DNA of 64,000 nucleotides from an uncultured Gammaproteobacteria bacterium (GTDB lineage Bacteria; Patescibacteriota; Patescibacteriia; Magasanikbacterales; UBA10003), in assembly GCA_964365025.1 (NCBI GenBank), contig CAYIOJ010000002.1:20208-84207 (forward strand), given 5' to 3'. Made by a program: the position numbers and the translations under genes. The stretch's first letter is position 1, and every line of letters begins with the position of its first letter. Below are positions 53,334 through 63,722 of the stretch, piece by piece. The notes below the pieces were generated by a model, which was given only the letters and a program-made list of their open reading frames with translations, did no database searches and was not told the origin of the DNA.

Positions 53334-56078
53334 ATGTCAATCTTTAAAACCCTTTTTGGCAGCCCAAATTTAAGAGTAATCAAGCAAATTCAGCCGATAG
53401 TTGAGGAAATCAATAAATTGGAATCGGAATTGGCCAAATTATCAGCTGATGAACTCAAAAATAAAACCGTTGAATTTCGCGAACGACTGGCTAAAGGCGA
53501 GGCGTTGGACGCACTTTTGTCCGAGGCCTTTGCCACTGTTCGCGAAGCGGCCAAACGCACTATTGGCCAACGGCATTTTGACGCGCAATTGATTGGCGCG
53601 GTTGTTTTGCATCGCGGGCAGATTTCTGAAATGCGCACTGGTGAAGGCAAAACCCTGACCGCGACCTTAGCAGTGTATTTAAACGCGTTGGAGGGCAAGG
53701 GCGCGCAGGTGGTAACGGTGAATGATTATTTGGCCAAGCGCGACGCAGTATGGATGGGGCAGATTTATAATGCCTTGGGCATGACTGTCGGGTGCATTCA
53801 ACAGCAGACGCGTAGTTTTATTTACGAACCAGGGTATCAAGCGGCCGCACCTGTTATTAAAGAAATCAGTGGTAAAGAAGATGAAGTCAAAGAGTCCTTG
53901 GTGAAAATTGAGCCGTCGCATTTGCGTCCGTGCCAGCGTCGCGAGGCCTATCATTGCGATATTACTTACGGCACCAATAATGAATTTGGTTTTGATTATT
54001 TGCGCGACAACATGGTGGCGAATTTGGCGGAAATGTCCCAGCGCGATTTGCATTACGCCATTATTGATGAAGTTGATTCAATTTTAATTGATGAAGCGCG
54101 CACCCCTTTGATTATTTCCGCTCCGGCAGAGGAAGCGACTGATAAATATTACCAGTTTTCCGAATTGGTCAGCCGTTTGACGGAAAATGAGGATTACAAC
54201 ATTGATGAAAAATTGCGCTCGGCCACTTTGACCGAGGCTGGTATTGAAAAATTGGAAAAATGGCTGGGTTTGGATAATATTTACGCCGAAGGCGGGATGC
54301 AAACAGTGCATCATTTGGAGCAGGCGCTTAAAGCGCGCGTGCTTTTTAAATTGGACAAGGATTATGTTGTGAAAGACGGCGAAGTTATTATTGTGGATGA
54401 ATTTACCGGCCGTTTGATGTTTGGCAGGCGCTTTAGCGAAGGCCTTCATCAAGCTATTGAGGCCAAAGAAAAAACTAAGATTCAGCGCGAATCGCAAACG
54501 CTTGCCACCGTCACTTTTCAAAATTATTTTCGTCTTTACAAAAAAATCGCCGGCATGACCGGCACGGCGGCCACCGAGGCCGAGGAATTTTCCAAAATTT
54601 ACAATTTGGAAGTGGTGGAAATTCCCACGCACCGGCCGATGATTCGTCGCGACGAGCCCGATCGCATTTATAAAAATGAGGAGGGCAAGTTTCAGGCCGT
54701 GATTAAAGAAATCAAAGAACGCAATACCAAAGGTCAGCCGGTTTTGGTCGGCACGATTTCCATTGAAAAAAACGAAGAGTTGAGCCGTCTTTTGGAAATG
54801 GAAGGGATACCGCACCAAATTTTAAACGCTAAAAATCATGAAAAAGAAGCGGAGATAATTTCTCAAGCCGGTCGTTTTGGCGCGGTTACTTTGGCCACGA
54901 ATATGGCCGGTCGCGGCGTGGATATTATTCTTGGCGGCAACCCGGCTATATCGGAAGAAGCAACCAAGGTGCGCGAAGCTGGCGGTTTGCATGTGCTTGG
55001 CACCGAACGGCACGAATCGCGGCGCATTGACAATCAATTGCGCGGCCGTTCCGGCCGCCAGGGCGACCCGGGTTCGTCTCAATTTTATGTGTCTTTGGAA
55101 GATGATTTGATGCGCATTTTTGGCTCGGACCGAATCAAAAAAATGATGGAATTTTTGAAAATGCCGGCGGATATGCCGATTGAAAATAAAATGGTGTCGC
55201 GGGCGCTGGAATCGGCGCAGAAAAAAGTGGAAGGGCACAATTTTGACATTCGCAAACACTTGCTTGATTATGATGATGTGTTGAATAAGCATCGCGGGGT
55301 GATTTACAAAAAACGGCGGGAAATTTTGGCCGAATACGAAGCGGAAAAATCAGGCGGACAAAAAAATGTTTTAAAAGCAAGAGTTTTGGAATTGGTGGAG
55401 CAGGAAATTGAGCAGGTGGTTTTTTTCCACACCGGCGGCACTGCGGGCGGGGATTGGAACATTAAAGAAATTTATGAAACAGCTATCACTATTTTTCCTT
55501 TGAATGAGTCGGAAAAAGAGGAATTGTTTAAAATTGCCCGTGAAGACGAAGGCCGCCGCGCTGATGCCGAGGCCCGTTCGCGTTTGGTGGAATTTTTGAT
55601 CGGCCTGGCCAAGACTCGTTATGATGAAATGAGGCAGAAAATAAATAATCCGGAAATGGTGTTGGAAATGGAAAAAGGCATTCTTTTGCGCGCGATTGAC
55701 ACCCTGTGGGTGGATCATTTGGTAGCGATTGATTATTTGCGCGCCGGTATTGGACTGCGCGGCTATGGCCAGCGCGATCCGTTGGTGGAGTATAAAAAGG
55801 AAACATACCGCTTATTCGGCGAGTTATTGAATTTGATTCAAAAAGAGGTTGTCTATAGTTTTTACAAAATTGGTACGGCCCTGGATTTAGCGCCGTCTTT
55901 GATGCAGAGAAGCAACATCCAGATGTCCGGCGCGGCGAAAGATGGCGGCTCGGCGGCCTCTATCGCGGAGACGCGGCCAAAAGAGTTTACGAAAACCGCC
56001 ACGGGTGATAAAATAGGCAGAAATGATCCCTGCCCCTGCGGGTCGGGGAAGAAATATAAGAAGTGTCATGGGAGATAA
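53334..56078 (+). CDS. secA: Protein translocase ATPase SecA
   Basis: Full-length SecA motor (GEGKTLTATLAVYLNAL, DEVDSILIDEARTPLIIS) with a C-terminal zinc-binding CPCGSGKKYKKCHG. Confidence 0.95.
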   Translation: MSIFKTLFGSPNLRVIKQIQPIVEEINKLESELAKLSADELKNKTVEFRERLAKGEALDALLSEAFATVREAAKRTIGQRHFDAQLIGAVVLHRGQISEMRTGEGKTLTATLAVYLNALEGKGAQVVTVNDYLAKRDAVWMGQIYNALGMTVGCIQQQTRSFIYEPGYQAAAPVIKEISGKEDEVKESLVKIEPSHLRPCQRREAYHCDITYGTNNEFGFDYLRDNMVANLAEMSQRDLHYAIIDEVDSILIDEARTPLIISAPAEEATDKYYQFSELVSRLTENEDYNIDEKLRSATLTEAGIEKLEKWLGLDNIYAEGGMQTVHHLEQALKARVLFKLDKDYVVKDGEVIIVDEFTGRLMFGRRFSEGLHQAIEAKEKTKIQRESQTLATVTFQNYFRLYKKIAGMTGTAATEAEEFSKIYNLEVVEIPTHRPMIRRDEPDRIYKNEEGKFQAVIKEIKERNTKGQPVLVGTISIEKNEELSRLLEMEGIPHQILNAKNHEKEAEIISQAGRFGAVTLATNMAGRGVDIILGGNPAISEEATKVREAGGLHVLGTERHESRRIDNQLRGRSGRQGDPGSSQFYVSLEDDLMRIFGSDRIKKMMEFLKMPADMPIENKMVSRALESAQKKVEGHNFDIRKHLLDYDDVLNKHRGVIYKKRREILAEYEAEKSGGQKNVLKARVLELVEQEIEQVVFFHTGGTAGGDWNIKEIYETAITIFPLNESEKEELFKIAREDEGRRADAEARSRLVEFLIGLAKTRYDEMRQKINNPEMVLEMEKGILLRAIDTLWVDHLVAIDYLRAGIGLRGYGQRDPLVEYKKETYRLFGELLNLIQKEVVYSFYKIGTALDLAPSLMQRSNIQMSGAAKDGGSAASIAETRPKEFTKTATGDKIGRNDPCPCGSGKKYKKCHGR

Positions 56079-56087
56079 TTTTAAAAT

Positions 56088-57536
56088 ATGAAAAAAATAT
56101 TTTCTCACAAGATTTTAATCATCGGTTACGGCGCGGTGTCGCAGTGCACCTTGCCGATTTTATTGGACAAGATTGATGTTCCTTTTGGCAATGTCACCAT
56201 CATTGATTTTGAAGATAAATCGCAATTATTGAAAAAATACACTGATAAAGGTTTGAATTATATTCATGAACGGATTACCCAAGAAAATTTAGGCCATGTT
56301 TTGTCAAAGCATTTGGATGATGGGGGATTGCTGATTGATCTGGCTTGGAATATCGGCGCCAATGATATTCTTAGCTGGTGCCATGATCATAATGTTTTGT
56401 ATGTGAATACTTCGGTAGAGGTTTGGGATTCATTGGCTGGTGTTTTCACCGACAGTCCATTTGAAAAATCATTGTATTGGCGGCAAATGAAACTTCGGGA
56501 AATGATTAAAGATTGGAAAGACGCGCCGACTGCCGTGGTGGATCACGGCGCTAATCCCGGATTGATTTCGCATTTTGCCAAACAAGGACTTATGGATATC
56601 GCCGCGAAATTGATTGCCGATAACAAAGCAACCGGACAAGATAAGGAAGAAATGCAGCAATATCAAAAAGACAAGAATTTTGCCAAACTTGCGCAAAAAC
56701 TGGGAGTAAAAGTTATTCATTGCAGTGAGCGGGACACGCAAATTACCAATCGTCCAAAAGCAGTTGATGAATTTGTGGGCACTTGGAGCATTGAAGGCCT
56801 GCGCGAAGAAGGGACGGCGCCGGCGGAAATGGGGTGGGGGACACATGAACAAAAATTGCCGGCTTTGGCGCAGGTGCCGCCGTATGGCCCTAAAAATCAA
56901 ATTGCTCTTGCCCAGATGGGCGTCAACACTTGGGTGAGGTCGTGGATACCCAATGAAGAAATTGTGGGTATGGTGATTCGTCACGGCGAGGCCTTTGGGC
57001 TTTCCGACCGTTTGACTGTTTGGGATGGGGACAAGGCCATCTATCGGCCGACAGTGCATTACGCGTATATGCCTTGTCACGAAACACTGTCTTCTTTGTG
57101 CGAATTGCGCGGACGAAATTATGTTTTGCCGCCAAAATTGAGAATTATGGGAGATGAAATTACTTGCGGAGCTGATATTTTGGGCGCGTTACTCATGGGG
57201 CATCAATTTAATTCTTGGTGGACCGGCAGCGCTTTGACTATTGAAGAGGCGAGGCGGCTGGCTCCTGGGCAAAATGCTACTACGCTTCAAGTTGCTTTGG
57301 GAGTCATTTCTGCGGCGCTGTGGATGATTGATAATCCGCGTCGCGGGCTTAACTTGCCGGATGATTTGCCTCATGATTTTGTTTTGGATATTGCGAAGCC
57401 TTATCTGGGCGATTTTATTTCCACGCCTTCTGATTGGACGCCCTTGAAAAATCGTGTGATTTATTTTAAAGAAAATCCAGCCAGCCGGCCGCATCCGGAC
57501 ACTTGGCAGTTTGAGAATTTTAAATTTTTGTCATAA
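56088..57536 (+). CDS. hss: Homospermidine synthase-like / saccharopine-dehydrogenase-family enzyme
   Basis: 482 aa with an N-terminal Rossmann fold (ILIIGYGAVSQ) and length and pattern typical of bacterial homospermidine synthase. It lies in a polyamine gene neighbourhood. Confidence 0.55.
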   Translation: MKKIFSHKILIIGYGAVSQCTLPILLDKIDVPFGNVTIIDFEDKSQLLKKYTDKGLNYIHERITQENLGHVLSKHLDDGGLLIDLAWNIGANDILSWCHDHNVLYVNTSVEVWDSLAGVFTDSPFEKSLYWRQMKLREMIKDWKDAPTAVVDHGANPGLISHFAKQGLMDIAAKLIADNKATGQDKEEMQQYQKDKNFAKLAQKLGVKVIHCSERDTQITNRPKAVDEFVGTWSIEGLREEGTAPAEMGWGTHEQKLPALAQVPPYGPKNQIALAQMGVNTWVRSWIPNEEIVGMVIRHGEAFGLSDRLTVWDGDKAIYRPTVHYAYMPCHETLSSLCELRGRNYVLPPKLRIMGDEITCGADILGALLMGHQFNSWWTGSALTIEEARRLAPGQNATTLQVALGVISAALWMIDNPRRGLNLPDDLPHDFVLDIAKPYLGDFISTPSDWTPLKNRVIYFKENPASRPHPDTWQFENFKFLS

Positions 57537-57582
57537 ATTAAAAAAGGCGCTGAACAGACCGTTTGGTCCGTCGCGCCCTATA

Positions 57583-57918
57583 TTACAGGTTCATGAGTAT
57601 GACCCCGGCCATAGATAGGGCCATTCCGAACGCATGTAGTGGCTGAATTTTATCTCCAAAATACAAACAGCCAATTAGTATAGCGCAGACGCCGATTATC
57701 GCCATTTGCATGATGCAAAGCCGTCCCAGCTCCCACTTTAATTGGAACAAGTAGATGAAAAGAATACTTTGAATTAGGTAGAGAGCTACGATTGGCGCCA
57801 TCAGCCAATGGAACACGCCCTGCGCCAAGGTGGAAGTATTATTAGCCAATTCTTTGGTCAGGGAATCGGCTATCACGGCCGATATTGCCGCAACAACCAT
57901 CATCAACGCCTGTGTCAT
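57583..57918 (-). CDS. Small 4-TM membrane transporter, SMR/DMT-like
   Basis: 111 aa with four hydrophobic helices and an EmrE/MdtIJ-like size and layout. Confidence 0.5.
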   Translation of the reverse strand: MTQALMMVVAAISAVIADSLTKELANNTSTLAQGVFHWLMAPIVALYLIQSILFIYLFQLKWELGRLCIMQMAIIGVCAILIGCLYFGDKIQPLHAFGMALSMAGVILMNL

Positions 57919-57972
57919 TTGTCTCCTCTTTCATTTTTTGAACTGGCTATAATTTAGCATAATTATTTATTT

Positions 57973-59169
57973 TTGTCAAGGACCATCATTATGATGACCG
58001 AACAACGAAAAAAACTTTTGCAGGAATTGGCCGCCAAGCGCGGCACGCCGCTATTCGTGATTGACCACGAAATCCTGCGGCAGAATTTTCAGGAATTTCG
58101 GGAAAAACTGCCCGATATTCAACCGTATTTCGCGGTTAAGGCTAACCCTGATCCGGAAATAATCAAAACCATGTTTGATTTGGGTTCAAGCTTTGACACG
58201 GCTTCAATTTATGAATTTAAAATGGTCCACGAGCATATCAAAGATTGGTCGGAAAAACAGCGGCAGGATTTTATCTGGGACAAGATTATTTACGCCAACA
58301 CCATCAAGCCGGCGAAAGTTCTAGCCAAGTTGAATCCTTATAAAATTCTAGTTACTTTTGACAATATTGAAGAATTAAAAAAAATCAGACAGCACGCGCC
58401 AGACGTGGGACTGATTCTGCGCCTGCGCGTGCCCAATACCGGCTCCATGGTGGAGCTTTCTTCAAAGTTTGGCGCTCATCCCGGCGAGGCGGTGGACCTG
58501 ATGCTTGAAGCCGCACAGATGAATTTGGGAGTGGAGGGTATTAGTTTTCATGTGGGCAGTCAGTGCAATAATTTTGATAATTATGTGCAGGCCCTGAATT
58601 TTGTTTCTTCAATTTTTAAAGAAGCGAAATTGCGCGGATTGGAAATCGGATTTGTGAGAGACGGCCAAAGGACCAAAGTGGTGGATATTGGTGGCGGCTT
58701 TCCGGTAAAGTACACGCCAGACGTGAAATCGTTCACCGCGCTCGCCAAAAAAATAAATTCGGAAATCAAGCGGTTGTTTAATAAAGATCGCGTTCAGATC
58801 ATTGCCGAACCCGGCCGGTTTATGGTGGCGGCGGCCTGTACTTTGGTAACCAAGATTATCGGCAAGTCGGTGCGCGACGGCAAGACCTGCTATTATTTGG
58901 ATGACGGGGTTTACCACACTTTTTCCGGACAGGTTTTTGATCATCAGCATTACCCGCTGCATTCTTTTAAAGAAGGCGAGAAAAAAGTTTGCGCCACTTT
59001 CGGCCCGACCTGCGACGCCTTTGACACGATTTCTCTGGCTGATGAATTGCCGGAGGACTTGCAAATTGATGATTTGCTTTATGCCGAAAATATGGGCGCC
59101 TATACCACGGGTTCAGCCACTTTTTTCAATGGTTTTCCACCGGCCAAAGTGGTGCATATAAACAAGTAA
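57973..59169 (+). CDS. PLP-dependent decarboxylase, fold type III (ornithine / diaminopimelate / carboxy(nor)spermidine decarboxylase family)
   Basis: Carries the FAVKANPDPEI PLP-lysine motif, the GGGFPV glycine-rich loop and a C-terminal beta-barrel domain. Confidence 0.75.
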   Translation: MSRTIIMMTEQRKKLLQELAAKRGTPLFVIDHEILRQNFQEFREKLPDIQPYFAVKANPDPEIIKTMFDLGSSFDTASIYEFKMVHEHIKDWSEKQRQDFIWDKIIYANTIKPAKVLAKLNPYKILVTFDNIEELKKIRQHAPDVGLILRLRVPNTGSMVELSSKFGAHPGEAVDLMLEAAQMNLGVEGISFHVGSQCNNFDNYVQALNFVSSIFKEAKLRGLEIGFVRDGQRTKVVDIGGGFPVKYTPDVKSFTALAKKINSEIKRLFNKDRVQIIAEPGRFMVAAACTLVTKIIGKSVRDGKTCYYLDDGVYHTFSGQVFDHQHYPLHSFKEGEKKVCATFGPTCDAFDTISLADELPEDLQIDDLLYAENMGAYTTGSATFFNGFPPAKVVHINK

Positions 59170-59247: not shown

Positions 59248-60978
59248 ATGGGTATTCGCAATTTCCGCGTAACCAATACAATGTCGCGCCAGCGCATCAG
59301 ATGGGGGACGATCGGCGTGGCTGTGTTATTAATTTTTACCGCTCTGTTTTCCTTTCCGCAGGCGTATGATAAAGTGTCGGACGGATTGAAAAGCAAAAGT
59401 GGCATTGATTTGGGGCACTTTCCATGGCAGACGCCGTTTCGGCTGGGGTTGGATTTGCTTGGCGGCACGCATTTGGTATATGAGGCCGATGTGGCCAAAA
59501 TGTCTTCTGGCGGAAAAGCCGACGCGGTGGAAGGAGTGCGCGATGTGATTGAGCGGCGCGTCAACGCTCTTGGCGTGTCCGAACCGGTGGTGCAGACCGA
59601 TCGCGCGGGAGAATCTTGGCGCGTAATCGTGGAGTTGGCCGGCATTAAAGACGTGAATCAGGCCATTAAAATGATTGGCGAGACGCCTATTTTGGAATTT
59701 AAAGAAGAAGCGGGATTTATTGGATTAACTGACGAGCAAAAAAAAGGAATGGAAACATTTAATAAAGCCGCGGAGAAAAAGGCCAATGATGTTTTAAAAC
59801 AAGCTTTGAAATCAAAAACTGACTTTGTCGCGTTGGCCAAAAAATATTCTGAAGACCCGGGCTCGGCCGCTAACGGCGGGGCCTTGGGTTGGTTTGGCGA
59901 AGGCATGATGGTGAAATCGTTTGAAAACGCGGTCAAAACACTGTCGGTAAATCAGTTGACTACAAAATTAGTTCAATCGCCATTCGGTTATCACATCATT
60001 AAAAAGACCGGTGAGAGGGAAGTGGAAAAAGACGGTGAGAAAGTAAAAGAATACGAAGCCAGTCACATTTTATTGAAAACTAAAAGCGAGGCGGATTACG
60101 CTCCTGCCGATCAGTGGAAATTGACCGGTTTGTCCGGCCAGCAATTGAAAAAATCTTCAGTGCAGTTTGATCCAAATTCCGGCATGCCCACAGTAGCTTT
60201 GGAATTCAATGCCGAGGGCAAGGATTTGTTTGCCGCCATTACCGAGCGCAATGTCAATAAACAGGTGGCCATATTTTTGGACGGGGATCTAATTTCCAGT
60301 CCGGTCGTGAGAGAAGCGATTCGTGATGGGCAAGCCGTTATTTCCGGCGATTTCAGCATTGCCGAGGCTAAACAATTATCCCAACGTCTGAACGCCGGCG
60401 CTTTGCCTGTGCCTGTCACTTTGATCGGCCAGCAGACAGTCGGAGCGAGCCTGGGAGCCGATTCATTAGACAAAAGTTTGTTTGCCGGCTTGATTGGATT
60501 TGTTGCTGTGGCTGTGTTTATGATTTTGTTTTATCGTTTGCCCGGAGTGCTCGCGGTTTTGGCTTTGATTCTCTATACATTTATAACTCTCACGATTTTC
60601 AAGATGATCCCGGTAACTTTGACTTTGGCTGGTATTGCCGGTTTTATTCTTTCTATTGGCATGGCTGTGGACGCGAATGTTTTAATTTTTGAACGCACTA
60701 AAGAAGAATTGCGCCGCGGACTCACCATCACGCAGGCGCTGAACGAGGGCTTCGCGCGCGCCTGGCTGTCAATACGTGATTCCAACGCCTCCAGTTTGAT
60801 TACTTGTTTGATTCTGATGTGGTTTGGCACGAGCGTGGTTAAAGGTTTCGCCATTACTTTGGCCATTGGTATTTTGGTAAGCATGTTTTCGGCCATTACG
60901 GTTACTCGCGTTTTGCTACATTTTGTCGGGCCGTGGATAAAAAATGCCAAATGGTTTTTGGGAGGGGTAAAAAAATAA
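59248..60978 (+). CDS. secD: Protein translocase subunit SecD with an embedded parvulin-like PPIase domain
   Basis: SecD TM1, P1 head and a C-terminal 6-TM bundle. Inside the periplasmic domain is a segment FVALAKKYSEDPGSAANGGALGWFGEGMMVKSFENAV ... SPFGYHIIKK ... EASHILLKT that matches the parvulin/PrsA signature. Confidence 0.8.
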   Translation: MGIRNFRVTNTMSRQRIRWGTIGVAVLLIFTALFSFPQAYDKVSDGLKSKSGIDLGHFPWQTPFRLGLDLLGGTHLVYEADVAKMSSGGKADAVEGVRDVIERRVNALGVSEPVVQTDRAGESWRVIVELAGIKDVNQAIKMIGETPILEFKEEAGFIGLTDEQKKGMETFNKAAEKKANDVLKQALKSKTDFVALAKKYSEDPGSAANGGALGWFGEGMMVKSFENAVKTLSVNQLTTKLVQSPFGYHIIKKTGEREVEKDGEKVKEYEASHILLKTKSEADYAPADQWKLTGLSGQQLKKSSVQFDPNSGMPTVALEFNAEGKDLFAAITERNVNKQVAIFLDGDLISSPVVREAIRDGQAVISGDFSIAEAKQLSQRLNAGALPVPVTLIGQQTVGASLGADSLDKSLFAGLIGFVAVAVFMILFYRLPGVLAVLALILYTFITLTIFKMIPVTLTLAGIAGFILSIGMAVDANVLIFERTKEELRRGLTITQALNEGFARAWLSIRDSNASSLITCLILMWFGTSVVKGFAITLAIGILVSMFSAITVTRVLLHFVGPWIKNAKWFLGGVKK

Positions 60979-61006: not shown

Positions 61007-61909
61007 ATGACCAATTTCAATCTTGTTAAAAATCAAAAATATTTTCTAGTTTTTTCCGGCGTTTTGATTGTGGCCGGTTTGCTCGCGATTTTGATTTGGG
61101 GGCTGAAGCCTGGTTTGGATTTTACCGGCGGCTCGCTTTTGGAAGTGGCTTTTCAGGACGCCCGTCCGGACAATCAAGAGGTTGAACAAAAAATTAGTTC
61201 ACTCGCGGAAAAGCCGGTTTTGATTCCGGCCGGGGAAAAAGATTTGATTATTAAAATGAAAGCGGTTGATGAGGCCAAACATCAGCAGATTTTGTCAGCC
61301 TTGAAAGAGCTGGGCGGTGGAGGGGATAAGGTGATGGAGAAAAGATTTGAAATGATTGGTCCCACTGTCAGCGCGGAGTTGAAAACAAAATCATTTTTAG
61401 CCATTGTTTTTGTGCTGCTGGCTATTATTCTCTACATCGCTTTTGCTTTCCGCAAAGTTTCACGTCCGGTCAGTTCTTGGAAATACGGCGTTTGCGCGGT
61501 CTTGGCCCTGTTTCACGATGTGATTATTCCGACCGGCGTCTTTGCCGTTTTAGGGCGCTTTCTCGGCGTGGAGGTTGACACCTTGTTTGTTACCGCGCTT
61601 TTAACTGTACTCGGCTTCTCGGTTCATGATACAATAGTGGTGTATGATCGCATTCGTGAAAATCTGCTGAAATTTCCGCGCGAGACTTTTGATGAAGTGG
61701 TTAACCGCAGTGTTAATCAAACCGCGGTGCGTTCGGTAAACACTTCCCTAACTGTGCTTCTGGTGCTACTCGCCACTTTCTTTTTTGGCGGTGAATCAGT
61801 CAAGTATTTTGTGCTGACTTTGATTATCGGCGTGGTCTTTGGAACTTACTCATCAATTTTTATCGCGAGCCCACTGCTTGTGATTTGGAATCGAGCGGCG
61901 AAAAAATAA
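61007..61909 (+). CDS. secF: Protein translocase subunit SecF
   Basis: SecF TM pattern and conserved FHDVIIPTG ... VHDTIVVYDRIREN. Confidence 0.9.
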   Translation: MTNFNLVKNQKYFLVFSGVLIVAGLLAILIWGLKPGLDFTGGSLLEVAFQDARPDNQEVEQKISSLAEKPVLIPAGEKDLIIKMKAVDEAKHQQILSALKELGGGGDKVMEKRFEMIGPTVSAELKTKSFLAIVFVLLAIILYIAFAFRKVSRPVSSWKYGVCAVLALFHDVIIPTGVFAVLGRFLGVEVDTLFVTALLTVLGFSVHDTIVVYDRIRENLLKFPRETFDEVVNRSVNQTAVRSVNTSLTVLLVLLATFFFGGESVKYFVLTLIIGVVFGTYSSIFIASPLLVIWNRAAKK

Positions 61910-61921
61910 TTTTAACGCCCG

Positions 61922-62320
61922 ATGATTTCTATGCGAGGAGAATCATTAATGGGTTACACCTACGATGAGGTAGAGGCGTACCGCCATGGCGCTTCTCTTT
62001 TGATTTGTTTCGCGGTCATTTTAATGTTTTTTGGCGGTTATTTTTCAGCGCAATTGGAATGGAAATGGCTGCAAATTTCCGCCTTGCTCGCGGCCTGGCA
62101 AACATTTCAGTATTTGGGCTCCATGGAAGTAAAAATGGATTTTTACACGATGATTATCAGAGTTATTGCGTCGCTTTTGGTCGGTCTGGTTTTCTGGTTG
62201 ATTTTTTTATGGGGTTTTTATGTCGGACCCAAGCACGCTTGGTGGGCCTTTTTGCCATTGGTTTTGGTTTATTTTATTTCGGCTAAATACATTCACAAGC
62301 CTTACAAACGCGGTCATTGA
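61922..62320 (+). CDS. Hypothetical 4-TM membrane protein
   Basis: 132 aa with four hydrophobic helices. No family recognised. Confidence 0.4.
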   Translation: MISMRGESLMGYTYDEVEAYRHGASLLICFAVILMFFGGYFSAQLEWKWLQISALLAAWQTFQYLGSMEVKMDFYTMIIRVIASLLVGLVFWLIFLWGFYVGPKHAWWAFLPLVLVYFISAKYIHKPYKRGH

Positions 62321-62321
62321 T

Positions 62322-63722
62322 ATGATTTCTATTGATTTCAGCTATTTTGATTGGTTTCTCAATTTTATTACCGTGGCCCCGCCGACCGAAGTGTATATCT
62401 ACCTTTTCACTCACGGCGGTTGGCTAATTTTATTTTTTGTCGTCTTTAAATCTTTTTGGCAGTTTTATCATCTTTCCCGCACCGGCGCGTATCTCGGAAA
62501 ACTGCCGTGGGTGCTTCTGGCAGTGGACATTCCCAAAGGCAATGAACAGACGCCAAAAGCGGTGGAGCAGATATTCGCGCACTTGGCCGGCGCTCACAAA
62601 ACACCTGATTTGGAGGAACAGTTTTTATACGGCTTTATGCCGGCTTGGTTTTCGTTTGAAATCGTGAGCATTGAGGGCTATATTCAATTTATTATCCGTA
62701 CTATTAAAAAATATCGCGATTTGGTGGAAGCCTCCATTTACGCGCAATACCCGGAAGCGGAAATCACTGAAATTGAAGATTATACCAATGATTTTCCGTC
62801 GCATTTTCCCAATAAAGAATACCAACTGTTCGGCACTGAATATATTCTTACCAATAAAGAGCAGAGTTATCCCATCCGCACTTACAAAGATTTTGAGCAC
62901 ACGGCCGCGGAAGATATTTTTAAAGACCCTATTGCCGCGCTTTTGGAAACATTCAGCCGTGTGGGCAAGGGCGAATTTACCGGTTTGCAGATTTTAGTGA
63001 AACCAATCAGCAACAGATGGAATAATTGGAAAGAGCACGGCGAGGCGGTGGTAAAAAAAATGATTGGAGCCAAGGTAAAAATTAAAGATTCTATTATTAG
63101 CAAACTTGGCAGCTTGCCCGGACAAGTTTTGGATACAACAGTTGAAGCAGTGGCCGGATACGCGGTGGGAGCGGAAGAAGCAATGAATAAAAAAGAAGAA
63201 GCGCCCTCTTTGATGTTGCACTTGCCGCCCGGATTTAAAGTTAACGTGGAAAAAGTGGAAACAAAAATCAGCAAGATTTGTTTTGCCACGAAAATCCGCT
63301 GGATTTATATGGCGAAGAAAGACATCTATAATCGCGCCAAAACCAGCTATGGCGTGACCGGCGCTTTTAAACAATATAATGTAGAAGATATGAACGGCCT
63401 TAAACCTGAATTTGCCTCAATTGGCACGCATGTGCATTATTTTATGATAAAGACGCGTCAAAATTGGCGCCGCACTCGCCTGATTAACGCTTATAAAGCG
63501 CGGAGCCGCTGGAAGGGCGCCATGGAATATCTTTTAAACATTGAAGAGCTGGCTTCGTTGTGGCACTTCCCGATGCTTACGGTCAAGGCGCCGATGGTCG
63601 CCGGCACTCAAGCCAAACGCGGCCAGCCGCCGGCTACATTGCCGGTGGAGAGAGAAGGTGGCTTGTTAAGGCCGGTGGAGAAAAAGGCTAAAGGCGCTCC
63701 GCCGCCGAATTTGCCGGTATAA
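62322..63722 (+). CDS. Hypothetical membrane-anchored protein with a large soluble domain
   Basis: N-terminal TM helix (WLILFFVVFKSFW) and a ~400-aa soluble region with no nucleotide-binding motifs. It precedes a coupling-protein-like ATPase gene. Confidence 0.4.
   Translation: MISIDFSYFDWFLNFITVAPPTEVYIYLFTHGGWLILFFVVFKSFWQFYHLSRTGAYLGKLPWVLLAVDIPKGNEQTPKAVEQIFAHLAGAHKTPDLEEQFLYGFMPAWFSFEIVSIEGYIQFIIRTIKKYRDLVEASIYAQYPEAEITEIEDYTNDFPSHFPNKEYQLFGTEYILTNKEQSYPIRTYKDFEHTAAEDIFKDPIAALLETFSRVGKGEFTGLQILVKPISNRWNNWKEHGEAVVKKMIGAKVKIKDSIISKLGSLPGQVLDTTVEAVAGYAVGAEEAMNKKEEAPSLMLHLPPGFKVNVEKVETKISKICFATKIRWIYMAKKDIYNRAKTSYGVTGAFKQYNVEDMNGLKPEFASIGTHVHYFMIKTRQNWRRTRLINAYKARSRWKGAMEYLLNIEELASLWHFPMLTVKAPMVAGTQAKRGQPPATLPVEREGGLLRPVEKKAKGAPPPNLPV

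What the first reader, a model, noticed from the sequence alone, without database searches (positions are those of the whole stretch)
59248..60978. SecD carrying an embedded parvulin-like PPIase domain, possibly circularly permuted
A segment with the PrsA/SurA parvulin signature (LAKKYSEDPGSAANGGALGWF...MVKSFENA...GYHIIKK) lies inside the SecD periplasmic region. The HIL-type beta1 motif (EASHILLKT) appears after GYHIIKK rather than before it, which suggests a permuted topology. A foldase fused to the translocon exit is a tidy functional arrangement.
Basis: partly seen in the sequence, partly recalled or inferred. Interest (0 to 1): 0.55.

Follow-up and report, generated by a model that had tools for sequence, protein, structure and literature searches.

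The report
SecD with built-in permuted parvulin foldase
This protein-export subunit (SecD) of a tiny-genome Patescibacteria bacterium has a proline-isomerase folding domain built into its outward-facing part, wired in a circularly permuted order, so a folding helper is probably attached directly to the secretion machine.

Summary
The observation and the interpretation both hold. ORF 59248-60978 (+, 576 aa) is a genuine SecD (TIGR01129 397 bits; SecF follows; Foldseek hits SecDF 5XAN/3AQP). Residues 153-294, at the P1 base-to-head connection, are a parvulin PPIase domain (Pfam Rotamase_3 E=6e-25). The domain-only AlphaFold model has pLDDT 93 and matches only parvulins (PrsA 6XD8 2.5 A, NmPin 2M08 1.8 A).

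The domain is circularly permuted. The His-bearing beta1 strand (EASHILLKT, 270-278) follows beta4 (GYHIIKK) through a long hairpin. Evidence: a tandem-duplication Pfam test, swapped-order hhalign hits, collinearity with SurA P1-core plus P2-beta1, and invariance of H249 and H273.

The fusion is lineage-wide: all 120 best database hits and at least 547 species-level genomes, essentially all Patescibacteria. About half are a longer form with a canonical parvulin apparently nested inside a degenerate permuted one.

The likely role is a translocon-tethered foldase. This is inferred; activity was not tested. I found no paper describing the fusion or a permuted parvulin. The nearest analogue is the non-covalent PrsA-like dome over SecDF in Mycoplasma. 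Verdict: a new variant of known parts, of moderate to high interest.

The parts
59248..60978 (+). secD ORF, 576 aa, including the embedded parvulin
   Evidence: ORF; TIGR01129 396.7 bits, cutoff 244.4; Foldseek to SecDF 5yhf/5xan/3aqp, E~1e-24
59287..59355 (+). TM1 of SecD (residues ~14-36)
   Evidence: AF2 helix 14-35, hydrophobic WGTIGVAVLLIFTALFSF
59422..59703 (+). P1 base, N-terminal part (residues 59-152; Sec_GG motif and SecD_1st), ending in ...ETPILEFK152
   Evidence: Sec_GG 62-81, SecD_1st 95-154; aligns to T. thermophilus SecDF residues 28-126
59704..60129 (+). Insert, residues 153-294. It takes the place of a ~40-residue stretch of T. thermophilus SecDF at the P1 base-to-head connection
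   Evidence: query 59-161 aligns to Tt 28-126; query 295 onward aligns to Tt 160 onward
59731..60030 (+). Parvulin core in the order alpha1-alpha2-alpha3-beta2-alpha4-beta3-beta4 (residues 162-261). Includes SED203, L213, M221, F225, S244 and GYH249IIKK
   Evidence: Rotamase_3 E=6e-25; AF2 elements; 6xd8 rmsd 2.5 A over 83 columns; 2m08 rmsd 1.8 A over 77 columns; hhalign E=5e-36 to the canonical parvulin profile
60037..60078 (+). Permuted beta1 strand (residues 264-277, EKVKEYEASH273ILLK), predicted to pair with beta4 as a long hairpin. Carries the first catalytic His
   Evidence: E247-261 / E264-277 hairpin, pLDDT >90; tandem-duplicate Pfam match starts at H273 at profile position 1; query 113-122 aligns to template 2-11, E=7e-6; H273 invariant
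60079..60129 (+). Linker from the parvulin back into SecD (residues 278-294, TKSEADYAPADQWKLTG)
   Evidence: short helix 281-284, then strand 290-296; W290 nearly invariant
60130..60441 (+). P1 head subdomain and return to the base (residues 295-398)
   Evidence: SecDF_P1_head 294-388, E=1.3e-28
60457..60936 (+). TM2-TM6 of SecD (residues 404-563), including the invariant GMAVD475ANVLIFER motif
   Evidence: SecD_SecF_C 393-558; helices 404-563; D475 invariant
61007..61909 (+). secF, the partner subunit, 28 nt downstream
   Evidence: TIGR00966 286 bits, cutoff 160

Best explanation
The gene encodes a functional SecD. Its extracytoplasmic P1 domain carries a complete parvulin-type peptidyl-prolyl isomerase domain at the connection between P1 base and P1 head, between LEFK152 and L295SG.

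The domain has the normal parvulin fold, but its chain order is circularly permuted. It starts at helix alpha1 and runs alpha1-alpha2-alpha3-beta2-alpha4-beta3-beta4. The strand that is N-terminal in every described parvulin (beta1, xSHILx, carrying the first active-site His) comes last, joined to beta4 by an extended charged beta-hairpin. The new chain ends, at the start of alpha1 and the end of beta1, are where the domain is spliced into SecD.

The parvulin hydrogen-bond network is intact: D203, H273, H249 and S244, equivalent to Pin1 C113, H59, H157 and T152. So is the proline pocket: L213, M221 and F225.

Inferred mechanism: as SecYEG/SecA extrude an unfolded chain, the proton-driven P1 head of SecDF captures it. 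The parvulin sits on the same mobile arm. It binds the emerging chain, catalyses prolyl cis/trans isomerisation, and holds the chain until release. This would give a small-genome, probably monoderm, bacterium a PrsA/PpiD-like foldase covalently fixed to the translocon at 1:1 stoichiometry.

Shown by computation: domain identity, insertion site, permuted order, residue conservation, extracytoplasmic location, and lineage-wide conservation.

Inferred only: catalytic activity, substrate hand-off, and coupling to P1 movement.
For: SecD identity: TIGR01129 above cutoff, SecF adjacent, SecDF structures as best fold matches.

Parvulin identity: Pfam Rotamase_3 E=6e-25. The insert profile hits SurA, PrsA, Par10 and Pin1 in the PDB down to E=8e-37. 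The domain-only AF2 model has pLDDT 93.3 and pTM 0.85. Its only significant Foldseek hits are parvulins: 6xd8 rmsd 2.5 A, TM 0.72, 46% identity; 2m08 rmsd 1.8 A, TM 0.71.

Permutation:
(a) The Pfam match to the native sequence lacks profile positions 1-12. In a tandem duplicate the best match runs from H273 of copy 1 to GYHIIKK of copy 2 and covers 1-96 of 97. A de-permuted construct scores 100.1 bits, against 92.7 for a shuffled control and 90.2 for the core alone.
(b) AF2 places strand 264-277 in a hairpin with beta4, in both the full-length and the domain-only models.
(c) hhalign of the short insert against the canonical inner parvulin of long-form relatives gives core-to-core (E=5e-36) plus C-terminal KEYEASHILL to N-terminal beta1 (E=7e-6), in swapped order.
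(d) The insert is collinear with SurA P1 core + linker + P2 beta1.
(e) H249 and H273 are invariant, D203 is nearly invariant, and connector indels come in 4-residue steps.

Conservation: all 120 best hits carry the same domain set. At least 547 species genomes have a confirmed relative. Of 56 recovered P1 regions, 27 are short permuted, 27 are long, and none has a canonical-only insert.

Functional plausibility: parvulin foldases are known to work at the Sec exit. Mpn444/Mdp444 crosslinks to SecD and forms a dome over SecDF-SecYEG. The PpiD/YfgM and SurA-Sec papers are listed.
Against: No coordinates were available. I could not directly verify that strand 264-277 sits between beta4 and beta2, or that H249 and H273 are within hydrogen-bonding distance. 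The order-dependent Foldseek alignments cover only ~80 residues, so they neither place nor exclude beta1.

PPIase activity is untested, and parvulin domains in SurA (P1) and PpiD are known to be catalytically inactive chaperone modules. Some relatives (L058, L074, L078) have lost both histidines. In long forms the permuted outer domain is usually degenerate. So catalysis is not universally required of this insert.

The AF2 full-length model is only moderately confident overall (pLDDT 75.6, pTM 0.45), so the position of the parvulin relative to the P1 head is not established.
Confidence: 0.82

Rival explanations
1. The insert has the permuted parvulin fold, but it acts only as a non-catalytic substrate-binding (holdase) or structural module on the P1 head, like SurA P1 or the PpiD parvulin domain. 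Prolyl isomerisation would play no role.
For: Relatives exist in which both histidines are lost (L058, L074, L078). In 91 long forms the outer domain is mostly degenerate, with N and R at the two His positions. Inactive parvulin domains in Sec-associated chaperones are established knowledge (SurA P1, PpiD).
Against: In the window protein and in every short form examined (47, 27), both His are invariant, D203 is nearly invariant, and S/T244 and the hydrophobic pocket are retained. In long forms an intact catalytic set is always kept in the inner domain. So each SecD with a detectable parvulin keeps one complete active site. That argues for selection on catalysis.
Confidence: 0.15
2. The parvulin is an ordinary, non-permuted or beta1-less domain. 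EASHILLKT would be a chance look-alike, or the first strand of the SecD P1 head (Pfam P1_head positions 1-19 are unmatched).
For: The P1_head match starts at profile position 20, so something else must fill the start of the head. The bit-score gain from adding beta1 is modest for the Rotamase model: 85.7 against 82.2 for the shuffled control.
Against: H273 is invariant in all relatives. hhalign maps KEYEASHILL onto beta1 of the family's own canonical parvulin at E=7e-6. HMMER prefers to bridge a 38-residue gap in order to include it. AF2 pairs it with beta4 at pLDDT >90. No His-bearing strand exists upstream; residues 155-161 are coil.
Confidence: 0.03
3. The trailing beta1 is a vestige of a second, deleted parvulin domain (a decayed long form) and is not part of a folded unit. 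The remaining core would be an incomplete remnant.
For: Long and short forms are interleaved on a crude tree, so deletions and duplications of a repeat unit have probably occurred. The insert is collinear with an out-of-register window on tandem parvulins.
Against: A vestige would not keep an invariant His and a near-invariant xSHILxKT across more than 70 diverged short forms. AF2 folds the segment confidently into the domain. Origin by duplication/deletion is compatible with, and is in fact the classical route to, a functional circular permutant.
Confidence: 0.04
4. The fusion is an assembly chimera or a frameshift artefact that joins a PrsA-like gene to secD.
For: None was found.
Against: It is a single uninterrupted ORF with SecD sequence on both sides of the insert. 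The same architecture appears in all 120 nearest database proteins and in hundreds of independent assemblies.
Confidence: 0.01

Closest known systems
Canonical SecD/SecDF (Thermus thermophilus 3AQP/5YHF, Deinococcus radiodurans 5XAN/5XAP)
   Same: TM1-P1-TM2-6 topology, Sec_GG motif, P1 base and P1 head, the conserved TM Asp motif (GMAVDANVLIFER), and a partner SecF. Best sequence and fold matches.
   Different: A ~40-residue stretch at the base-to-head connection is replaced by a 142-residue parvulin domain. No solved or described SecD that I found has an enzymatic domain there.
PrsA (Bacillus subtilis 4WO7/1ZK6, B. anthracis 6XD8): the lipoprotein foldase of monoderm bacteria
   Same: The parvulin domain is most similar to PrsA-type parvulins (46% identity, rmsd 2.5 A). 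It shares the SED / GGDLGW / MVKxFE / FGYHIIK motifs, an extracytoplasmic membrane-tethered location, and a presumed role in folding secreted proteins.
   Different: There is no N/C-terminal SurA-like chaperone domain and no lipobox. The anchor is SecD itself. The strand order is permuted, with beta1 last.
SurA (E. coli 1M5Y): tandem parvulin chaperone
   Same: Best profile hit (E=8e-37). The insert is collinear with SurA P1 core + linker + beta1 of P2. The long-form relatives also contain two parvulin units.
   Different: In SurA each beta1 belongs to the domain that follows it. Here the single core must use the strand that follows it. There is no SurA N-domain. SurA is soluble and periplasmic.
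PpiD/YfgM at SecYEG (E. coli), and the Mycoplasma pneumoniae dome complex (Mpn444/Mdp444 with SecDF-SecYEG)
   Same: A parvulin-containing chaperone is positioned at the exit of the Sec translocon. In Mycoplasma, which is also genome-reduced, it contacts SecD and the emerging substrate.
   Different: Those are separate polypeptides that associate non-covalently and carry SurA-like chaperone domains. Here the parvulin alone is covalently built into SecD.

Membership tests
SecD (TIGR01129 / Pfam SecD_1st + SecDF_P1_head + SecD_SecF_C) | Sequence model above the curated cutoff | tested here: met
   TIGR01129 scores 396.7 bits against a cutoff of 244.4. All three Pfam domains are above gathering.
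SecD (TIGR01129 / Pfam SecD_1st + SecDF_P1_head + SecD_SecF_C) | Topology: TM1, a large extracytoplasmic P1 (base + head), then five TM helices; fold like SecDF crystal structures | tested here: met
   AF2 elements. Foldseek to 5yhf/5xan/5xap/3aqp at E 1e-21 to 1e-24.
SecD (TIGR01129 / Pfam SecD_1st + SecDF_P1_head + SecD_SecF_C) | Adjacent or fused SecF partner | tested here: met
   SecF at 61007-61909: TIGR00966 286 bits against a cutoff of 160.
SecD (TIGR01129 / Pfam SecD_1st + SecDF_P1_head + SecD_SecF_C) | Conserved membrane-embedded Asp of the proton pathway (AVDxNV motif) | tested here: met
   D475 in GMAVDANVLIFER is invariant in 47 relatives and aligns to the GAAVDGNVLSFER motif of T. 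thermophilus SecDF. Its role in proton transport is taken from established knowledge.
SecD (TIGR01129 / Pfam SecD_1st + SecDF_P1_head + SecD_SecF_C) | PMF-dependent stimulation of protein export | not testable with these tools
   Needs genetics or biochemistry.
Parvulin-type PPIase domain (Pfam PF00639 / PF13616) | Sequence model above gathering | tested here: met
   Rotamase_3 88.5 bits (cutoff 22.5). Rotamase 77.4 bits (cutoff 21.7).
Parvulin-type PPIase domain (Pfam PF00639 / PF13616) | Parvulin fold: four-stranded antiparallel sheet plus four helices | tested here: met
   AF2 pLDDT 93.3 with 4 strands, 3 helices of four or more residues, and a short helical turn at the alpha3 position. The only significant Foldseek hits are parvulins, at rmsd 1.8-2.5 A.
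Parvulin-type PPIase domain (Pfam PF00639 / PF13616) | Canonical chain order beta1-alpha1-alpha2-alpha3-beta2-alpha4-beta3-beta4 | tested here: not met
   Beta1 follows beta4. It is a circular permutant: a member of the fold/superfamily, but not of the canonical topology.
Parvulin-type PPIase domain (Pfam PF00639 / PF13616) | Active-site hydrogen-bond network (Asp/Cys - His - His - Thr/Ser) and proline pocket (Leu, Met, Phe) | tested here: met
   D203, H273, H249 and S244, plus L213, M221 and F225. Both His are invariant and D203 is nearly invariant. The alignment to Pin1 is; the Pin1 sequence and numbering are from memory.
Parvulin-type PPIase domain (Pfam PF00639 / PF13616) | Measured prolyl cis/trans isomerase activity | not testable with these tools
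   Needs an enzyme assay.
PrsA / SurA / PpiD chaperone families | SurA-N / trigger-factor-like chaperone domain flanking the parvulin | tested here: not met
   There is no such Pfam domain in the protein. The NCBIfam PrsA and SurA models match only over the parvulin region and fall far below cutoff, e.g. 63 bits against 361.
PrsA / SurA / PpiD chaperone families | Own anchor or signal (lipobox for PrsA, signal peptide for SurA, N-terminal TM for PpiD) as a separate polypeptide | tested here: not met
   The domain is internal to SecD.

The most novel reading that the evidence does not exclude
Across much of the Patescibacteria the stand-alone extracytoplasmic foldase (PrsA/PpiD type) has been replaced by a parvulin built into the moving P1 arm of SecD. 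The proton-driven swing of SecDF would then mechanically feed each emerging segment to a prolyl isomerase, coupling translocation to catalysed folding in one polypeptide. In addition, the family preserves a natural series for the parvulin fold: a permuted single domain, a permuted domain with a canonical domain nested in its hairpin, and degenerate forms. That series would document circular permutation by duplication/deletion in action.
Probability: 0.3. Interest if true: 0.78.

Novelty: new variant of a known kind. Interest (0 to 1): 0.62.

Why it matters
How newly exported proteins are handed from the Sec channel to folding catalysts is an open question. It is currently approached through weak, transient complexes: PpiD/YfgM-SecYEG, SurA-holotranslocon, and the Mycoplasma dome. 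A natural covalent SecD-parvulin fusion fixes the geometry and stoichiometry of that hand-off. It is conserved across hundreds of Patescibacteria species, and it offers a compact construct for structural and biochemical work.

It also shows that the SecD P1 base-head junction tolerates a whole enzyme domain. It appears to provide the first natural circular permutant of the parvulin fold, with related nested and degenerate forms that are useful for studying how permutations arise. For CPR biology, it helps explain how organisms with ~1 Mb genomes may cover extracytoplasmic proteostasis.

Tried and rejected
(1) The Foldseek search with the full-length model returned only SecDF and RND pumps in the top 50, which hid the insert. 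A domain-only model solved this.

(3) Model coordinates are not exposed. I could not measure the H249-H273 distance or confirm beta1-beta2 pairing. A simple register count from DSSP was inconclusive, and I dropped it.

(4) BLASTP of a de-permuted construct against Pin1 aligned the core but not beta1, because of Pin1's long beta1-alpha1 loop. Profile methods were needed.

(5) Five literature searches (SecD+parvulin; circular permutation+parvulin; permuted/PPIase; SecD+Patescibacteria/CPR+PPIase; SecDF+PpiC/rotamase/fused) found no description of the fusion or the permutation. The library is incomplete, so this is not proof of novelty.

(6) A crude NJ tree of the non-insert parts shows short and long forms interleaved, with at least ~10 changes, but it is too weak to give a direction. 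I rejected any claim about which form is ancestral.

(7) I looked for a second, free-standing parvulin in the window and found none. A 64 kb window cannot say anything about the whole genome.

(8) I considered that EASHILLKT is the missing start of the P1 head (Pfam positions 1-19) and rejected it, for the reasons given under the rival explanations.
Full report
**Observation.** The window has a 576-aa ORF at 59248-60978 (+), followed 28 nt later by a 300-aa ORF. The quoted motifs are at residues 196-206 (LAKKYSEDPGS), 221-228 (MVKSFENA), 247-253 (GYHIIKK) and 270-278 (EASHILLKT), in that order. Pfam finds, in order: Sec_GG (62-81), SecD_1st (95-154), Rotamase/Rotamase_3 (170-254; E=1.7e-21 and 6.2e-25), SecDF_P1_head (294-388) and SecD_SecF_C (393-558). 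NCBIfam gives TIGR01129 secD at 396.7 bits (cutoff 244.4). The downstream ORF is SecF (TIGR00966, 286 bits). The Rotamase match begins at profile position 13 of 97, so the N-terminal strand of a normal parvulin is missing upstream of the core.

**The scaffold is SecD.** The full-length AlphaFold2 model (47-sequence alignment, mean pLDDT 75.6) has TM1, a large P1 region and five further TM helices. Its best PDB matches are SecDF structures 5YHF, 5XAN, 5XAP and 3AQP (E 1e-21 to 1e-24). Sequence alignment to T. thermophilus SecDF places window residues 59-161 on Tt 28-126 (…LEFK152 on …LEFR) and residues 295 onward on Tt 160 onward. So residues 153-294 take the place of about 40 residues at the P1 base-to-head connection. 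D475 in GMAVDANVLIFER is invariant.

**The insert is a parvulin domain.** A profile of 32 insert sequences hits SurA, PrsA, Par10/PpiC, Par14 and Pin1 chains in the PDB (best E=8e-37). The insert modelled alone is very confident (pLDDT 93.3, pTM 0.85). Its only significant Foldseek matches are parvulins. Against isolated parvulin domains the fit is tight: B. anthracis PrsA fragment 6XD8 at rmsd 2.5 A over 83 columns, TM 0.72, 46% identity; NmPin 2M08 at rmsd 1.8 A over 77 columns, TM 0.71. About 80 of ~93 target residues align. The shortfall is about one strand, as expected from an order-dependent aligner if beta1 has moved.

**The domain is circularly permuted.** Five lines of evidence agree.

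1. Pfam on engineered sequences. In a tandem duplicate of the insert, the best Rotamase stretch starts at profile position 1 on H273 (ASHILL) of copy 1 and ends at GYHIIKK of copy 2, covering 1-96 of 97. A de-permuted construct recovers full coverage and scores 100.1 bits for Rotamase_3, against 92.7 for a control with the moved segment shuffled and 90.2 for the core alone.
2. Both AF2 models give the order alpha1 (162-187), alpha2 (193-200), alpha3 (204-207), beta2 (212-217), alpha4 (223-231), beta3 (242-244), beta4 (247-261), a two-residue turn, then a strand at 264-277. That makes a long beta4-beta1 hairpin. Residues 155-161 upstream are coil.
3. hhalign of the short-form insert profile against a profile of 73 canonical inner parvulins from long-form relatives gives two hits in swapped order: core to core (query 20-101 to template 27-105, E=5e-36), and KEYEASHILL (113-122) to the N-terminal beta1 (template 2-11, E=7e-6).
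4. Against SurA, the insert profile aligns collinearly through the P1 core, the inter-domain linker and beta1 of P2 (VTEVHARHILLK). That is what an out-of-register window on a tandem parvulin repeat looks like.
5. H249 and H273 are invariant and D203 is nearly invariant; it is Cys in one relative, as in Pin1. S/T244 is kept, and connector indels come in 4-residue steps, as expected for a hairpin.

What I could not do is inspect coordinates, so the placement of beta1 between beta4 and beta2 is inferred, not measured.

**Distribution.** All 120 best hits in the 5.8-billion-protein collection have the same Pfam set. The named ones are Patescibacteria (Magasanikbacteria, Falkowbacteria, Parcubacteria group) and are annotated only as SecD or hypothetical. 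The closest named relative (80% identity) is from Candidatus Magasanikbacteria, so the window is most likely from that lineage.

They span Magasanik-, Falkow-, Kuenen-, Veblen-, Kerfeld-, Komeili-, Moran-, Uhr- and Buchananbacteria and the Parcubacteria group. Of 56 P1 regions recovered from those loci, 27 are short permuted forms (every one with GYHII followed by xHIL), 27 are long forms, and 2 are fully degenerate. None has a simple canonical beta1-core insert.

**The long form.** Relatives of ~685 aa have, after LEFK, a beta1-less first core, then a complete canonical parvulin (Pfam 1-96 of 97), then a trailing beta1-like strand. In 91 long forms the middle beta1 is His in 73 of 75 resolved cases, and the second core was identified by its intact GxH motif. 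The first core's beta4 position is mostly Asn and the trailing strand mostly Arg.

These two positions co-vary: (N,R) 27 times, (E,H) 5, (H,H) 4, and never (N,H). This suggests the first core pairs with the trailing strand. That would make an outer permuted parvulin with a canonical parvulin nested in its beta4-beta1 hairpin. Shared ancestry was not controlled for, and the alternative (two tandem permuted units) is identical at sequence level.

Short and long forms are interleaved on a crude tree of the non-insert parts, with at least ~10 changes. So interconversion by duplication or deletion of a repeat unit seems recurrent. The direction is unresolved.

**Mechanism (inferred).** The insert lies in P1 and is therefore extracytoplasmic. 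SecDF is thought to use the proton-motive force to swing its P1 head, capture the emerging chain and release it (established model from the 3AQP and 5XAN work). A parvulin spliced at the base-head junction would travel with, or sit beside, that head. There it could bind unfolded segments and catalyse prolyl isomerisation.

Each family member with a detectable parvulin keeps one complete catalytic set: the only domain in short forms, the inner domain in long forms. That favours a catalytic role over a purely structural one. The fully degenerate cases show it is not obligatory everywhere.

Independent precedent for parvulins working at the Sec exit:
- Mpn444 crosslinks to SecD in Mycoplasma pneumoniae (10.1101/2024.09.05.611430).
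- An in-cell dome of PrsA-like PPIC proteins sits over SecDF-SecYEG, with substrate density contacting the active PPIC domain (10.1101/2025.04.25.650208).
- The PpiD/YfgM and SurA-Sec interaction papers are listed.

Those are all non-covalent. Here the link is covalent and the SurA-like chaperone domain is absent.

**Comparison and novelty.** The protein is a member of SecD and of the parvulin fold, but not of the canonical parvulin topology. It is not a member of PrsA, SurA or PpiD. The Pfam-level co-occurrence is visible in precomputed annotations, so the fusion as such is discoverable in databases. NCBIfam has no dedicated model, source names say only SecD, and five literature searches found no description of the fusion, of a permuted parvulin, or of the nested form. 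I rate it a new variant of a known kind.

**Verdict.** Confidence that this is a SecD with an embedded, circularly permuted parvulin domain is high (~0.9). Confidence in the foldase mechanism is moderate. Interest is 0.62.

Noticed in passing
Relatives: P0019, P0033, P0038, P0050; loci L040-L080 (e.g. the L040 P1 region, 347 aa): About half of the family is a ~685-aa long form: degenerate beta1-less core, then a complete canonical parvulin, then a trailing beta1-like strand. The first core's beta4 position and the trailing strand co-vary (N/R, E/H, H/H). This suggests a canonical parvulin nested inside the hairpin of a permuted one.
   Followed up: partly
L058, L074, L078 (P1 regions): Some SecDs keep an insert of similar size at the same site but have lost both histidines and most parvulin motifs (two are undetectable with the core HMM). 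These look like decayed or purely structural inserts.
   Followed up: no
L006, L011, L020, L026 (P1 regions): In short forms the beta4-to-beta1 connector ranges from ~8 to ~45 residues, often acidic or low-complexity. The hairpin tip looks like a hot spot for insertions. It is the same place where the extra parvulin sits in long forms.
   Followed up: no
P0080 and L032 (insert motif HSDCPS): Two relatives have Cys instead of Asp at the D203 position, the Pin1-type catalytic residue. This is unusual for bacterial PrsA-like parvulins.
   Followed up: no
window 61922-62320 (+) and 62220-63722 (+): Directly downstream of secF there is a 132-aa hydrophobic ORF overlapping a 500-aa ORF with an N-terminal membrane segment. 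Neither has any Pfam or NCBIfam hit. Function is unknown, and they are possibly co-transcribed with secDF.
   Followed up: partly
window 53334-59169: secA (53334-56078; all SecA Pfam domains plus the SEC-C zinc motif) is separated from secD by three genes. These are a 482-aa saccharopine-dehydrogenase-family protein (homospermidine-synthase-like size, no NCBIfam hit), a 398-aa PLP decarboxylase of the Orn/DAP/Arg family (below every equivalog cutoff), and, on the opposite strand, a 111-aa SMR/EamA-like membrane protein. The first two look like a polyamine-type gene pair sitting inside a sec gene neighbourhood.
   Followed up: partly
L004, L006, L008, L010, L012, L049, L060 and others (record titles): Many contigs carrying this Patescibacteria-type SecD are titled 'uncultured Gammaproteobacteria', 'Bdellovibrionales' or 'Lysobacteraceae' MAGs. 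These are probably placeholder labels or mis-binned contigs rather than true occurrences outside Patescibacteria. I did not check this.
   Followed up: no
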